Shown: positions 194 to 7,369 of the stretch, piece after piece
Layout of the letters: each line of letters opens with the position of its first letter
How positions within the stretch are numbered: position 1 is the first letter of the stretch
DNA from: a virus
Lineage: Duplodnaviria > Heunggongvirae > Uroviricota > Caudoviricetes
Virus record (IMG/VR): IMGVR_UViG_2671180864_000008
DNA length: 7,789 nt
Reading direction: 5' to 3' (one strand)
The notes under the pieces: generated by a model
Databases searched by the model: none
What the model saw: the letters and a program-made list of their open reading frames with translations, nothing else
Told to the model about the DNA's origin: nothing
Translations under genes and position numbers: made by a program

Positions 194-529
194 ATGAAGT
201 GGATTGTGATTGATACAGTTATCCAGCCATCATGCGGAATATCTTTTTCAGTCATATGGAGTAAAATAAAATTAATAATCTGGTATCAATCGGATGCTTT
301 CTTACCTCCTGAAAGTATATTTACACTGACTCACACAGGCATCATGCTCAATAACAAAGTGCTACCTGTAACCATTTACAACGTAGTACCATTCAATAAA
401 ACATTCTGGAATTCAATCAAAAATAGCCAGGAATGCCCTACAAATACAGATAACGTATTGAATGAATGCTTTAATAACCGTTGCACTCTGCAAATATGTC
501 CTTATGGACTAAAACAACAAAGTCCATAA
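194..529 (+). CDS. Hypothetical protein, 111 aa, AT-rich, Cys-containing C-terminus; possible moron/cargo gene
   Basis: ATG start with AAGGAA Shine-Dalgarno 6 nt upstream (184-189). A 336-nt open frame is unexpected by chance in AT-rich DNA. No family recognised. Confidence 0.3.
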
Positions 530-563
530 GGAGTTTACTCACATCTGACAAAATCAATATAAA

Positions 564-585
564 CAGCCCCTCCGGAGAGGGGCTG
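564..585 (-). terminator. GC-rich perfect hairpin, probable minus-strand (or bidirectional) intrinsic terminator
   Basis: 9-bp perfect stem CAGCCCCTC / GAGGGGCTG with CGGA loop. On the minus strand it is followed by TTTATATTGATTTTGT; on the plus strand there is no U-tract. Confidence 0.4.
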
Positions 586-695
586 GAGAGTGGCGCTATG
601 TGCCATTGCATGGTGCCGGGTGCCTCCCGGTGAATTCAGTACCAGCACCTGAATCCGCGATTATCCCATATACCTACTCGCTGATTGCCCCTCCG

Positions 696-874
696 CACAG
701 GGGGATTCACCATGCCAGTTTCTTTTAACAAACTCCCCGCAAAANNNNNNNNNNNNNNNNNNNNNNNNNNNNNNNNNNNNNNNNNNNNNNNNNNNNNNNN
801 NNNNNNNNNNNNNNNNNNNNNNNNNNCACAGGGGGATTCACCATGCCAGTTTCTTTTAACAAACTCCCCGCAAA
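696..874. repeat. Two identical 48-nt direct repeats (696-743 and 827-874) flanking an 82-nt run of N (745-826)
   Basis: CACAGGGGGATTCACCATGCCAGTTTCTTTTAACAAACTCCCCGCAAA occurs on both sides of the N run. Consistent with a scaffold gap between overlapping contig ends or a collapsed tandem repeat. Confidence 0.8.
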
Positions 875-929
875 CCAGACAACAGTCAACCGCCTGAATT
901 GTGAAGTATTTAAAAATTTCTCCCGCTAA
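843..929 (+). CDS. Very small ORF (28 aa) with strong Shine-Dalgarno, partly inside the direct repeat
   Basis: GGGGGA 6 nt upstream of ATG at 843, stop TAA at 927-929. Translated by hand (MPVSFNKLPANQTTVNRLNCEVFKNFSR). Too short to judge coding status. Confidence 0.15.
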   Translation: MPVSFNKLPANQTTVNRLNCEVFKNFSR

Positions 930-1571: not shown

Positions 1572-1648
1572 TGGCGCGCTGTACTGGATTCGAACCAGTG
1601 ACCGATTGCTTAGAAGGCAATTGCTCTGTCCGGCTGAGCTAACAACGC
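1572..1648 (-). tRNA. argO: tRNA-Arg, anticodon UCU
   Basis: Hand-folded 77-nt cloverleaf on the minus strand: acceptor GCGTTGT/ACAGCGC, anticodon loop CT-TCT-AA, T-arm ACTGG-TTCGAAT-CCAGT, 3' GCCA. Symbol assumed from the ileZ-argN-argO order I recall for 933W-like phages. Confidence 0.85.
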
Positions 1649-1661
1649 ATGATGCAGATAA

Positions 1662-1738
1662 TGGACCGCCATCGGGGACTTGAACCCCGCGCAGCCAGCT
1701 TCGAAGGCTGGCGCTCTTTCCTGATGAGCTAATGGCGG
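1662..1738 (-). tRNA. argN: tRNA-Arg, anticodon UCG
   Basis: Hand-folded 77-nt cloverleaf: acceptor CCGCCAT/ATGGCGG, anticodon stem CCAGC/GCTGG with loop CT-TCG-AA, T-arm CGGGG-TTCAAGT-CCCCG, 3' TCCA. Symbol assumed from gene order only. Confidence 0.8.
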
Positions 1739-1745
1739 TATGTGA

Positions 1746-1821
1746 TGGTGGCCCTTGCTGGATTTGAACCAGCGACCTGGCGATTATGAGTCGCTCGCTC
1801 TCACCACTGAGCTAAAGGGCC
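1746..1821 (-). tRNA. ileZ: tRNA-Ile2-like, anticodon CAU (lysidine type, ileX-like), or possibly tRNA-Met
   Basis: Hand-folded 76-nt cloverleaf: acceptor GGCCCTT/AAGGGCC, anticodon loop CT-CAT-AA, T-arm GCTGG-TTCAAAT-CCAGC, 3' ACCA. Strongly resembles E. coli ileX as I recall it. Confidence 0.85.
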
Positions 1822-6439: not shown

Positions 6440-6469
6440 ATTCTATTCCGGCACCATCTAAAACTTCAA
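6440..6469 (-). promoter_or_regulatory. Candidate sigma70 promoter for the 6357..4311 gene block
   Basis: Minus strand TTGAAG, 18-nt spacer, TAGAAT, located between the hok terminator and the 86-aa ORF. Motif match only. Confidence 0.3.
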
Positions 6470-6476
6470 ACGCGTT

Positions 6477-6507
6477 GAAAATAAAAACAAAAACCCGCCG
6501 AAGCGGG
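6477..6507 (-). terminator. Intrinsic terminator of the hok transcript
   Basis: Minus strand CCCGC-TTCG-GCGGG followed by TTTTTGTTTTTATTTT. Confidence 0.75.
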
Positions 6508-6577
6508 TTAAGTGTGGGTGCATTGAGGATGCCTGACCCATCAGAGGTGGCGAGGGATTTCTCCCCCGCCTGGTCTC

Positions 6578-6733
6578 TTACTCCTCAGGTTCGTAAGCTG
6601 TGAAGACAGCGACCTCCGTCTGGCCGGTTCGAATTCGTACCTCGCAGAGGTCTTTCCTCGTTACCAGTGCCGTCACTATGACGGTTAAACAGATGACGAT
6701 CAGGGCGATTAACATCGCCTTTTGCTGCTTCAT
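6578..6733 (-). CDS. hokD: Hok/Gef-family type I toxin, 51 aa
   Basis: Translation from the internal ATG at 6733 (MKQQKAMLIALIVICLTVIVTALVTRKDLCEVRIRTGQTEVAVFTAYEPEE) matches HokD/RelF as I recall it. AAGGAG Shine-Dalgarno upstream. The track ORF extends in frame to an ATG at 6790 (70 aa). Confidence 0.85.
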   Translation of the reverse strand: MKQQKAMLIALIVICLTVIVTALVTRKDLCEVRIRTGQTEVAVFTAYEPEE

Positions 6734-6885
6734 AGCCTGCTTCTCCTTGCCTTTCGGCACGTAAGAGGCTAACCTAGATTTGCCGTTCATAGATTGAGCC
6801 TCAGATTAATGTTAAGCGTCTTGCCGGACGCGTAATGTTAACTGGGGCTTTTCTCTATCTGCCTTTTGGTGTTCATGCCTGAGAC

Positions 6886-6915
6886 AGATAGCCTCAAGCA
6901 CCCGCTGCAATTCTA
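6886..6915 (-). promoter_or_regulatory. Candidate hok promoter -10 (TAGAAT) and 5' tac-like element of the hok mRNA
   Basis: Minus strand TAGAAT at 6915..6910. The mRNA 5' segment GGGTGCTTGAGG (about 6898..6887) is complementary to the 3' segment CCTCAATGCACCC (about 6531..6519), consistent with the fbi/tac fold-back typical of hok mRNAs. Confidence 0.4.
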
Positions 6916-7024
6916 CTTAACTCTCCTTTTCCCGCAAACCGTTTTTATCCCCAGCGGCAAATCGAATACACCACCAGCGCCACCGCCATCGCAATTCCTA
7001 CCGTTGTTAATGCTTCAGGCCAGG

Positions 7025-7369
7025 TCATCGTAAAATATCCTCCACGCTTATCAGTCCGTTCCGCTCCAGATAACTCATCGCCTTATCCGGTAATTTGCAG
7101 TCTGGCTTCGCTTTCCTCAGTTGCCAGGTTAACTGCTTTACCAGCATGGTTAACTCATCGACCAGACGCTGATATCCCACTGGTTTGTATTCATGCAATT
7201 TACCGGCTGGCTCTGCTGCCAGCGATACCAGTGCGATTTCCAGAACAGCAATATCCATCTTATATGTGCGGATGATGTCATGGTCGATTGTGCCCGGTAT
7301 GCACAGTCTCTGTGCTTCAATAGTCTCCTCTGCGTGAGCTATTAACTGCTCTCTGGTAAAAGTCGTCAT
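7025..7369 (-). CDS. Hypothetical protein, 114 aa; paralog of the upstream 55-aa ORF
   Basis: ATG start overlapping the upstream stop (ATGA), Shine-Dalgarno GGGG. Shares the N-terminal MTTxT(K/R)E(R/Q) and the internal IAL(A/V)SL(E/A)AEP motif with ORF 7366..7533. Confidence 0.5.

What the first reader, a model, noticed from the sequence alone, without database searches (positions are those of the whole stretch)
6477..7024. Self-contained hok toxin locus embedded in the nin region
A HokD-like toxin is present with its own promoter-like -10, a leader with 5'/3' complementarity of the fbi/tac type, an in-frame upstream extension, and a strong terminator. This indicates an autonomous type I toxin-antitoxin module rather than a passenger of a relBE operon. 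The Sok-like antisense RNA expected on the plus strand around 6740..6870 could not be delimited by eye.
Basis: partly seen in the sequence, partly recalled or inferred. Interest (0 to 1): 0.45.

Follow-up and report, generated by a model that had tools for sequence, protein, structure and literature searches.

The report
Intact prophage hok/sok toxin-antitoxin cassette
This is a complete copy of the well-known hok/mok/sok RNA-controlled killer cassette, the intact form of E. coli hokD and a close relative of the tested hokW-sokW of Shiga-toxin phages, sitting in a lambdoid prophage; it is ordinary, but its antisense recognition site is unusually variable among relatives.

Summary
Window 6482-6937 (minus strand) holds a full hok/mok/sok type I toxin-antitoxin cassette.

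- **Toxin:** the Hok protein is identical to K-12 HokD (Pfam HOK_GEF, E 3e-23).
- **Leader:** Rfam RF01794 matches the hok mRNA leader at 6903->6728 with 112 bits.
- **tac-fbi pairing:** the 5' end (6903-6892) pairs with 6528-6516. This pairing sits at the same place in 40 of 43 related loci from five genera, with U:A<->C:G covariation.
it maps to 6782-6852 (+). Its promoter is TTGCCT (6747-6752), 17 nt, TAACCT (6770-6775). The mapping rests on the annotated 71-nt sokW of phage 933W, whose -10 was mutated experimentally (PMC8621323).
- **Autonomy:** K-12 hokD matches the window only from 17 nt upstream of the hok ATG; relE replaces the rest of the leader. The window therefore carries the autonomous form, not the relBEF passenger.
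- **Abundance:** cassettes covering at least 80% of the region occur in 1,467 of 5,426 complete E. coli genomes.

One item may be new. The 13 nt recognised by the Sok 5' tail diverge about 8 times more than hok third-codon positions among loci with nearly identical Hok. There are 22 alleles, and all keep the same hairpin.

The parts
6910..6937 (-). hok/mok promoter: -35 TTGCGG (6937-6932), 16-nt spacer, -10 TAGAAT (6915-6910)
   Evidence: Read from the sequence. The -10 and its distance to +1 align with the R1-type locus (TATGAT). GTAGAAT is conserved in nearly all of 174 related loci, while the sequence further upstream varies. The consensus scan did not report it.
6486..6903 (-). Primary hok mRNA, about 418 nt, from G6903 to the terminator T run
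   Evidence: The Rfam RF01794 model starts exactly at 6903. The 5' end aligns with R1 GGCGCUUGAGG. Fold: -169.2 kcal/mol, z -6.7. The 5' end is inferred by homology and was not mapped.
6892..6903 (-). tac element (mRNA nt 1-12, GGGUGCUUGAGG)
   Evidence: It pairs with fbi in the MFE fold. With nt 13 it forms a local metastable hairpin with nt 19-29 in a 35-nt nascent RNA. It pairs with ucb in the Rfam open-form structure. Alignment columns 1-3 and 5-8 are invariant in 41 loci.
6844..6850 (-). ucb / anti-SD (mRNA nt 54-60, AAGCCCC)
   Evidence: It pairs with the mok SD in the full-length fold and with tac in the open form. Columns 57-59:105-107 are invariant G-C/C-G pairs in 41 loci.
6798..6802 (-). 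mok Shine-Dalgarno GAGGC (mRNA nt 102-106)
   Evidence: Invariant GAGGC in 41 loci. It lies 7 nt upstream of the mok ATG and pairs alternately with ucb or dcb.
6578..6790 (-). mok ORF, 70 aa, in frame with hok (same stop)
   Evidence: ORF list. The same in-frame arrangement is annotated as mokW in 933W. 144 of 174 relatives have the in-frame 70-aa form.
6771..6795 (-). Sok-target hairpin (sokT; mRNA nt 109-133) enclosing the mok ATG, loop ACGGCAAA
   Evidence: Present in the MFE and open-form folds. The same stem-on-SD/dcb architecture is kept by all 22 alleles, 21 of them at -10.3 to -14.3 kcal/mol.
6765..6769 (-). dcb (mRNA nt 135-139, GCCUC), pairs with the mok SD in the open form
   Evidence: Rfam structure and the fold of the 5' 140 nt. 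The block AGCCTCTTAC is conserved with R1.
6578..6733 (-). hok toxin gene, 51 aa plus stop; SD GGAG at 6746-6743
   Evidence: Pfam HOK_GEF E 3e-23. The protein is identical to K-12 HokD, with one synonymous difference in the CDS.
6549..6570 (-). 3' stem-loop GGCGGGGGAGAAAUCCCUCGCC, presumed road-block for 3' trimming
   Evidence: Helices 12 and 13 of the consensus structure have compensatory changes (A:U to G:C in 11 of 41). The road-block role is inferred from R1 (PMC1635323).
6516..6528 (-). fbi element (CCUCAAUGCACCC), pairs with tac
   Evidence: the best partner of the 5' 14 nt lies 45-56 nt after the stop codon in 40 of 43 loci. Column 4:408 is U:A 26, C:G 11, U:G 3.
6482..6509 (-). Intrinsic terminator: 7-bp stem (5 G-C pairs), loop TTCG, T run
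   Evidence: Terminator scan. The sequence is identical in K-12 hokD. The cassette's 3' homology boundary falls at 6480-6490 in about 117 of 249 loci.
6747..6775 (+). Sok promoter: -35 TTGCCT (6747-6752), 17-nt spacer, -10 TAACCT (6770-6775)
   Evidence: It aligns without a mismatch to 933W. The 'pro-less' mutation of Takada et al. replaces exactly this -10 (primers YO-421/422) and unmasks HokW toxicity. Conserved in nearly all relatives; one variant reads TTGACC...TAATCT.
6782..6852 (+). Sok antisense RNA, about 71 nt: single-stranded 5' tail 6782-6795, long hairpin 6796-6850, U-rich end
   Evidence: Coordinates transferred from the annotated sokW of 933W (L002 3277-3347). The fold shows an unpaired 5' tail plus hairpin, -31.4 kcal/mol, z -4.9. 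Both ends are inferred, not mapped.
6774..6803 (.). Hypervariable patch: Sok start site and 5' tail, equal to the sokT loop and mok codons 1-5
   Evidence: Mean pairwise divergence is 0.23 here, and 0.31 in the 13-nt tail target. This compares with 0.05 in the rest of the leader and 0.038 at hok third-codon positions.

Best explanation
The region is a complete, self-contained hok/mok/sok type I toxin-antitoxin cassette of the hokD/hokW lineage, carried as a moron in the early (nin-like) region of a lambdoid prophage.

**Shown from sequence**
- A weak promoter (-10 TAGAAT) would start a roughly 418-nt hok mRNA at G6903.
- In the full-length RNA the 5' end (tac) pairs with the 3' fbi element.
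- The mok ribosome-binding site GAGGC is then held by the upstream anti-SD AAGCCCC, so neither mok nor hok should be translated.
- Convergently, the promoter TTGCCT-17-TAACCT inside the mok/hok leader would make a roughly 71-nt Sok RNA (6782-6852).

**Inferred from R1 and hokW-sokW**
- Slow 3' trimming back to the stem-loop at 6570-6549 removes fbi.
- tac then pairs with the anti-SD, and the mok SD moves onto dcb beneath a hairpin that presents the mok start region.
- The single-stranded 5' tail of Sok binds that hairpin. This blocks mok translation, and hence the coupled translation of hok, and the duplex is cut by RNase III.
- Sok is short-lived and hok mRNA is stable. When Sok synthesis stops (loss of the element, transcription shut-off, prophage induction), Hok is made, inserts into the inner membrane and kills or lyses the cell.

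**Least certain:** the biological payoff. It could be prophage retention, help with lysis on induction as reported for Sp5, or exclusion of other phages.
For: **Family signatures**
- Rfam RF01794 matches 6903->6728 over the whole model: 112.4 bits against a gathering score of 59, E 1e-25.
- Pfam HOK_GEF E 3e-23; PHROG 251 'MokW-like host killing' E 8e-33.

**RNA structure**
- The full transcript folds with tac-fbi end pairing, z -6.7.
- In 40 of 43 related loci (Escherichia, Shigella, Kluyvera, Photorhabdus, Pantoea, Erwinia) the best 3'-UTR partner of the 5' 14 nt lies 45-56 nt after the stop codon.
- The RNAalifold consensus of 41 loci recovers tac-fbi. 16 of its 70 pairs carry compensatory changes.
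- 98.3% of cells are paired against about 42% when partners are slid by 1-3 columns. 0 of 500 shuffles reach the observed covariation.
- Energy model: the closed form beats the open form by 10.8 kcal/mol in the RNA ending at fbi, but by only 1.8 kcal/mol once the 3' end is trimmed. The 5' 140 nt alone folds into the Rfam open form.

**Homology to characterised loci**
- Block-by-block alignment with an R1-type hok/sok covers tac, ucb, mok SD, the dcb/Sok -10 block and the Sok -35/hok SD block.
- The locus is 91.8% identical to mokW/hokW/sokW of 933W, where all three genes are annotated. The Sok promoter and hairpin align without a mismatch.
- hokW-sokW was shown to be a working toxin/antitoxin pair with both RNAs detected by northern blot (PMC8621323).

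**Modularity**
- Homology boundaries cluster just past the terminator and just upstream of the promoter in 249 loci set in different flanks.

The mechanism itself is taken from PMC9841398 and PMC1635323.
Against: - Nothing here was measured for this copy. Transcript ends, Sok expression, 3' processing and toxicity are all inferred.
- The consensus promoter scan found neither promoter.
- The trimmed RNA's predicted minimum-energy fold is not the open form. It keeps the ucb-SD pairing and puts tac in a local hairpin; the open form is 1.8 kcal/mol higher.
- Chromosomal hokA, hokB and hokC loci were reported not to mediate post-segregational killing or respond to rifampicin (bioRxiv 10.1101/2025.08.07.668861). 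An intact-looking locus need not behave like R1.
- No terminator separates the locus from the upstream early genes, so read-through transcripts with a longer 5' end are expected during lytic growth.
- 933W hokW lies near attR, not in the early region. Its reported role may not transfer to this position.
Confidence: 0.9

Rival explanations
1. hok here is a passenger gene without its own control, expressed only by read-through from upstream prophage genes, as K-12 relF/hokD is expressed from the relBE promoter.
For: - There is no terminator between the upstream ORFs (7369-7025 and the 27-aa ORF 7028-6945) and hok.
- hok has the same orientation as the early genes.
- The hok -35 is poor and varies among relatives.
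- K-12 shows that such a passenger state exists.
Against: - The whole R1-type leader is present and scores 112 bits.
- The -10 TAGAAT sits at the R1 distance from a conserved +1.
- tac can only pair 'blunt-ended' with fbi if transcripts start at 6903, and that pairing covaries.
- The cassette occurs in unrelated flanks (near attR in 933W).
- Read-through may add to, but does not replace, autonomous control.
Confidence: 0.05
2. The cassette looks intact but is a silent relic, like several chromosomal hok loci. It neither kills on loss nor affects the phage.
For: Chromosomal hokA, hokB and hokC did not give post-segregational killing or rifampicin activation. Nothing was measured for this copy.
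Against: - No disruption was found in any element.
- Hok is 100% conserved in 129 of 174 related loci, with third-position divergence of only 0.038.
- RNA helices are maintained by compensatory changes.
- HokD and 42 of 45 tested Hok homologs are toxic.
- The close relative hokW-sokW has a measurable phenotype.
Confidence: 0.1
3. The mechanism is as in the best explanation, but the selected function is exclusion of other phages (abortive infection on host transcription shut-off), not prophage retention or lysis assistance.
For: [quoted passage not shown]
Against: The same preprint's section heading reports that hok is not enriched near defence systems (outline). The only direct test of a prophage copy found a positive effect on its own phage's release. 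Nothing in the sequence discriminates between the two roles.
Confidence: 0.25

Closest known systems
mokW/hokW/sokW of Stx2 phage 933W and Sakai prophage Sp5
   Same: - 91.8% identical over 84% of the query, window about 6506-7028.
- Same in-frame 70-aa mok, same Sok promoter and hairpin, same tac and fbi.
- All three genes are annotated. Toxin/antitoxin activity and both RNAs were demonstrated.
   Different: - HokW differs at the C-terminus (...VFVDYESEK against ...VFTAYEPEE).
- 8 of 22 nt differ around the mok start and Sok 5' tail; 6 of 13 differ in the tail target.
- 933W lacks the terminator hairpin and diverges right after fbi.
- 933W carries the locus near attR on the opposite strand to the tail genes, not in the early region.
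hokD (relF) of E. coli K-12, Qin prophage, relBEF operon
   Same: - Hok protein identical.
- DNA near-identical from 17 nt upstream of the ATG through the 3' UTR, fbi and terminator.
- Same neighbourhood type: upstream of a DUF968/YdfU-like gene and Q.
   Different: K-12 lacks the promoter, tac, ucb, mok start, sokT and the Sok gene; relE abuts instead. There hok is co-transcribed with relBE. The window is the undisrupted form.
hok/mok/sok (parB) of plasmid R1
   Same: Same order and spacing of all regulatory blocks. Same Rfam and Pfam families. The mechanism is taken from this system.
   Different: - HokW, which differs from this Hok only at the C-terminus, is 44% identical to R1 Hok.
- In the copy aligned here the R1-type mok ATG is out of frame with hok (read); here mok is in frame.
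- The second leader hairpin, which is the Sok terminator hairpin, is longer here, with 16 extra nt relative to the Rfam model. Sok is about 71 nt rather than 64 nt.
- The locus is on a prophage, not a plasmid.
hokC (gef)/mokC-type chromosomal loci
   Same: Hok 80-82% identical (L015-L022). Same tac and fbi, with fbi CUUCAACGCACCC.
   Different: The leader is shorter (tac to ATG 150 nt against 170 nt). The location is chromosomal and not prophage-linked in the loci fetched.

Membership tests
[quoted passage not shown] | About 50-aa Hok/Gef toxin with an N-terminal membrane helix and a conserved C-terminal part | tested here: met
   HOK_GEF E 3e-23, 81.6 bits against a cut-off of 22, over the full profile 1-42. 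The protein is identical to K-12 HokD.
[quoted passage not shown] | hok mRNA leader with the family's sequence and secondary structure | tested here: met
   112.4 bits against a gathering score of 59, model positions 1-157 of 157, on the hok sense strand.
[quoted passage not shown] | Overlapping mok frame with its own SD, through which hok is translated | tested here: met
   The ORF 6790-6578 follows the SD GAGGC. A mok ORF is present in all 172 relatives scored, in three different frame arrangements. Translational coupling itself is not testable here.
[quoted passage not shown] | Long-range tac-fbi pairing of the mRNA ends, conserved in relatives | tested here: met
   The pairing is in the MFE fold. 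It sits at a fixed position in 40 of 43 loci. It covaries: U:A 26, C:G 11, U:G 3.
[quoted passage not shown] | Switch between closed (ucb-SD) and open (tac-ucb, SD-dcb) conformations after loss of fbi | tested here: inconclusive
   All complementary boxes are present. The predicted penalty of the open form drops from 10.8 to 1.8 kcal/mol on trimming. The open form is still not the predicted minimum.
[quoted passage not shown] | Convergent Sok gene in the leader: promoter, single-stranded 5' tail complementary to the mok start region, terminator hairpin | tested here: met
   The promoter aligns without a mismatch to the experimentally mutated sokW promoter. The fold shows a tail plus hairpin, z -4.9. 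This was met at sequence level only.
[quoted passage not shown] | Sok is transcribed and unstable; hok mRNA is stable and 3'-processed; the duplex is cut by RNase III | not testable with these tools
   Shown for R1 and in part for hokW-sokW. No data exist for this copy.
[quoted passage not shown] | Hok kills and Sok in cis or trans prevents killing | not testable with these tools
   Shown for HokW/sokW. HokD was among the previously characterised toxic controls, and 42 of 45 tested homologs were toxic.
relBEF-type hokD (K-12 Qin) | relBE immediately upstream; hok lacks its own leader and Sok gene | tested here: not met
   No relBE is in the window. The full leader is present where K-12 has relE.

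The most novel reading that the evidence does not exclude
The 13-30 nt around the mok start, which are both the Sok 5' tail and the loop it recognises, behave as a specificity locus. Among cassettes with nearly identical Hok there are at least 22 alleles. All keep the same hairpin and its stability, but they differ at 2-8 of the 13 tail-target positions.

The most novel reading is that prophage hok/sok cassettes are under diversifying selection for mutually orthogonal Sok/target pairs. One element's Sok then cannot disarm another's Hok. This would parallel incompatibility switching in antisense-controlled plasmid replication.

This window would carry one common allele (tail target AUCUAUGAACGGC), found in 1,627 of 5,426 complete E. 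coli genomes.
Probability: 0.35. Interest if true: 0.5.

Novelty: already known. Interest (0 to 1): 0.17.

Why it matters
**For annotation.** RefSeq records of near-identical prophage regions mark only the hokD CDS. Here mok, Sok, its promoter and the mRNA control elements can be given exact coordinates.

**For biology.** The window shows what K-12 hokD looked like before relBE displaced its leader. It places a hokW-like cassette in the early region, co-oriented with early transcription. Read-through on induction would run head-on into the Sok promoter, which is a testable route to the loss of Sok seen on induction of Sp5.

**The variable recognition patch.** If it reflects selection for orthogonality, it would explain how genomes tolerate up to 11 such cassettes. 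It would also supply natural orthogonal antisense pairs.

Tried and rejected
- **Consensus promoter scan.** It found neither the hok nor the Sok promoter. I kept both on the strength of homology and say so.
- **Rfam strand.** The 'sok' hit is on the minus strand. I first wondered whether it placed Sok there. The model runs from the hok mRNA 5' end to the hok start region, so it represents the hok leader. The real Sok is the reverse complement of mRNA nt 52-122.
- **Fold of the trimmed mRNA.** It did not give the open conformation. Enforcing tac-ucb showed the open form is 1.8 kcal/mol higher. I rate the switch as inconclusive rather than shown.
- **The 27-aa hydrophobic ORF 7028-6945 as part of the cassette.** It is shared with 933W, but only about 50 of 249 loci extend that far, and it has no Pfam or PHROG match. 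I rejected it as a core part.
- **Mutual exclusion of identical Sok alleles within a genome.** 8 of 9 same-genome pairs differ, but that is about what random draws give (my estimate from the allele counts). The window's allele occurs in 1,710 places in 1,627 genomes. By my Poisson estimate that is fewer duplicates than expected, but clonality and phage immunity confound the comparison. I make no claim.
- **Literature on Sok specificity alleles or cross-talk.** Searches and reading found no description of the variable patch.
- **Origin of the window.** A whole-window search gave only about 95% identity over 95% of the length to E. coli prophages. The exact source stays unidentified.

Full report
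**What is there.** The window is a stretch of a lambdoid prophage with its genes on the minus strand. Early-region ORFs of unknown function are followed by a DUF968/YdfU-like protein (5750-4692), RusA (4691-4311), an antiterminator Q (4314-3493), a DNA methyltransferase, three tRNA genes and an STnc100 sRNA. The finding's region holds a 51-aa ORF at 6733-6578. It matches Pfam HOK_GEF (E 3e-23) and PHROG 251 'MokW-like host killing' (E 8e-33). Its protein is identical to K-12 HokD. A 70-aa ORF (6790-6578) extends it in frame. A 7-bp G+C-rich hairpin with a T run follows at 6509-6492.

**The leader is a hok mRNA leader.** Rfam's only hok/sok family (RF01794, named 'sok') matches 6903->6728 on the minus strand over its whole length, with 112.4 bits against a gathering score of 59. 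The model starts with GGGUGCUUGAGG and ends at the hok start region. It therefore describes the hok mRNA 5' part in its open conformation, not the antisense RNA itself.

Alignment with an R1-type hok/sok locus fetched from an IncF plasmid shows the same blocks in the same order:
- the -10 hexamer (TAGAAT here, TATGAT in R1) at the same distance from the conserved 5' end;
- tac;
- the anti-SD AGCCCC;
- the mok SD GAGGC;
- the mok ATG;
- AGCCTCTTAC, which carries dcb and, on the other strand, adjoins the Sok -10;
- GCAAGGAGAAG, which is the Sok -35 on the other strand and the hok SD.

**End pairing and its conservation.** Folding 6903->6486 as RNA gives -169.2 kcal/mol, with z -6.7 against shuffles. 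In this fold nt 1-12 pair with CCUCAAUGCACCC at 6528-6516, and the mok SD pairs with the anti-SD.

I fetched 53 loci from one-genome-per-species contigs and 80 from IMG/VR. In 40 of 43 loci with a recognisable 5' end, the best partner of the first 14 nt within the 3' UTR lies 45-56 nt after the stop codon. Where the 5' end reads GGGCGC instead of GGGUGC, the partner usually reads GCGCCC instead of GCACCC.

A 41-sequence alignment was built from Escherichia, Shigella, Kluyvera, Pseudocitrobacter, Citrobacter, Photorhabdus, Pantoea, Erwinia and Kalamiella loci plus phage contigs. Its RNAalifold consensus recovers the tac-fbi helix, and 16 of its 70 pairs carry compensatory changes.
- 98.3% of cells are paired, against 40-44% when partners are slid by 1-3 columns.
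- No shuffle of 500 reaches the observed covariation.

**The switch.** The published mechanism comes from PMC9841398 and PMC1635323. The full-length RNA is closed. 3' trimming removes fbi. tac then pairs with the anti-SD, and the mok SD shifts to dcb under a hairpin that Sok recognises through its 11-nt single-stranded 5' tail.

All the complementary boxes are present here. In the energy model the open form costs 10.8 kcal/mol more than the closed one in RNA ending at fbi, but only 1.8 kcal/mol more after trimming to 6545. The first 35 nt form the metastable tac hairpin. The first 140 nt alone fold exactly into the Rfam open form. The direction of the effect fits the mechanism. The trimmed RNA's predicted minimum is still not the open form, so I rate this step as inconclusive.

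**Sok.** Phage 933W carries a locus 91.8% identical to this one, with mokW, hokW and a 71-nt sokW annotated. There are no indels between the two over the relevant stretch. This places Sok at window 6782-6852 on the plus strand. Its promoter is TTGCCT (6747-6752), 17 nt, TAACCT (6770-6775), and transcription would start on the seventh base after the -10.

This RNA folds as an unpaired 5' tail followed by a long hairpin and a U-rich end: -31.4 kcal/mol, z -4.9.

Takada et al. studied the locus in Sp5:
- They detected both sokW RNA and hokW mRNA by northern blot.
- They showed HokW toxicity.
- They unmasked that toxicity by replacing TAGGTTAG on the hok strand. This is the TAACCT -10, and the window has the same sequence at that site.
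- They rescued the cells with sokW in trans.

The promoter is kept in nearly all of 174 related loci.

**Autonomous or passenger.** K-12 hokD lies downstream of relBE in the Qin prophage, upstream of rem, ydfU and a Q gene. It is co-transcribed with relBE. Aligned to the window, K-12 is near-identical from 17 nt before the hok ATG through the 3' UTR, fbi and terminator. Upstream of that point it is unrelated. The window is therefore the intact form, and K-12 carries a copy whose leader and Sok gene were displaced.

In 249 fetched loci (some contigs were fetched twice), homology to the window ends just past the terminator (6480-6490) and mostly between 6910 and 6959 on the other side. The flanks beyond differ. 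In 933W the cassette sits near attR rather than in the early region. This is the behaviour of a small mobile module.

No terminator separates it from the upstream early ORFs. During lytic growth, read-through transcripts should cross it and run head-on into the Sok promoter. Whether that contributes to the loss of Sok on induction is inference only.

**How common it is.**
- The 621-nt region matches in 4,952 of 5,426 complete E. coli genomes.
- 1,467 of those genomes carry a place that covers at least 80% of the region.
- Places per genome: median 2, maximum 11.
- RefSeq annotates only the hokD CDS in such regions.
- A recent preprint reports Hok in almost 80% of Enterobacteriaceae genomes and enrichment in prophages.

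The finding is therefore a correct reading of an already described kind of locus.

**One thing that may not be described.** Hok is 100% identical in 129 of the 174 related loci compared. Among these loci the transcript is very uniform, except around the mok start:

| Region | Mean pairwise divergence |
|---|---|
| 13 nt bound by the Sok tail | 0.31 |
| Patch 6774-6803 | 0.23 |
| 3' UTR to fbi | 0.086 |
| Rest of the leader | 0.05 |
| hok third-codon positions | 0.038 |

- There are 22 distinct versions of the SD-to-dcb segment. All fold into the same SD/dcb stem topped by a hairpin; 21 of them fall between -10.3 and -14.3 kcal/mol, and one singleton with a mutated SD folds at -5.4. The loop and upper stem differ.
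- Nine same-length alleles compared differ at 2-8 (median 4) of the 13 tail-target positions. The window's allele differs from the others at 3-7.
- The same patch also differs among paralogs within Photorhabdus and Erwinia genomes.

Since the Sok tail is the recognition element, this looks like diversification of antisense specificity.

I could not show that identical alleles avoid each other within a genome. 8 of 9 same-genome pairs differ, about as expected by chance. The window's allele occurs in 1,710 places in 1,627 genomes, a comparison confounded by clonality and phage immunity. I found no description of this in the papers I could read, but key older papers were not read.

**Verdict.** The locus is a known kind (hokD/hokW family hok/mok/sok), so interest is low. 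The variable recognition patch is the only lead worth following.

Noticed in passing
window 6774-6803 (both strands); L057-L136 and others: The Sok 5' tail, sokT loop and first mok codons form the one hypervariable patch of an otherwise near-invariant cassette. There are 22 alleles with the hairpin preserved, and divergence in the tail target is about 8 times that at hok third-codon positions. The window's allele is in 1,627 of 5,426 complete E. coli genomes.
   Followed up: partly
relatives of window 6578-6790: L058 type, L011, L026: mok exists in three arrangements among close relatives. 144 of 174 have the in-frame 70-aa form. 21 have a 19-aa ORF that, by my reading of the sequence, ends in a TGA overlapping the hok ATG (ATGA). 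6 have an out-of-frame overlapping ORF as in R1. This fits mok mattering only as a translated stretch.
   Followed up: partly
window 6728-6903, minus strand: Rfam RF01794 is named 'sok antitoxin' but models the hok mRNA leader in the sense orientation, from the mRNA 5' end to the hok start. A hit marks the hok strand, and the real Sok is the reverse complement of its middle part.
   Followed up: yes
window 6945-7028, minus strand: A 27-aa hydrophobic ORF ([27 protein letters not shown]) overlaps the upstream ORF's stop by ATGA. It also lies upstream of hokW in 933W/Sp5, but it accompanies only about 50 of 249 cassettes. It has no Pfam or PHROG match.
   Followed up: partly
window 6590-6596, minus strand (Tyr47 codon TAC at 6595-6593): The sequence UUACGAA, which resembles the tRNA-Arg(ACG) anticodon loop, surrounds the Tyr47 codon. 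TTACGAA is invariant in 41 loci. A preprint states that hokC, hokD and hokE mRNAs are A-to-I edited by TadA to create a Cys at this position.
   Followed up: no
window 6440-6469, minus strand: This is the only site the promoter scan reported (TTGAAG-18-TAGAAT). It lies just downstream of the hok terminator and upstream of the 87-aa ORF 6360-6097. The same stretch follows hokD upstream of rem in K-12, with three base differences.
   Followed up: no
L002 (933W) against window 6482-6515: The 933W cassette diverges from the window right after fbi and lacks the terminator hairpin that the window and K-12 share.
   Followed up: no
window 555-880: An STnc100 sRNA match (133.6 bits, minus strand, 744-555) is followed by a run of N (745-826). 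After the N run the same 48 nt (cacagggggattcaccatgccag...) appear again, which suggests a masked tandem duplication of the element.
   Followed up: no
window 1572-1821, minus strand: Three tRNA genes lie between the methyltransferase and the downstream ORFs: Arg(tct), Arg(tcg) and Met/Ile2-type (cat). This is the arrangement typical of lambdoid and Stx-type prophages downstream of Q.
   Followed up: no
window 194-529, plus strand: This 111-aa ORF corresponds to a gene annotated as anti-adapter protein IraM in a 95%-identical E. coli prophage region (L256).
   Followed up: no
L018, L023, hit H26: Near-identical hokD cassettes appear on very short contigs labelled Acinetobacter idrijaensis (275 bp) and Xanthomonas pisi (431 bp), and in a record named Actinobacillus phage vB_Apl-pPE4 (97% identical). 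These look like contamination or mislabelled E. coli phage sequence.
   Followed up: no
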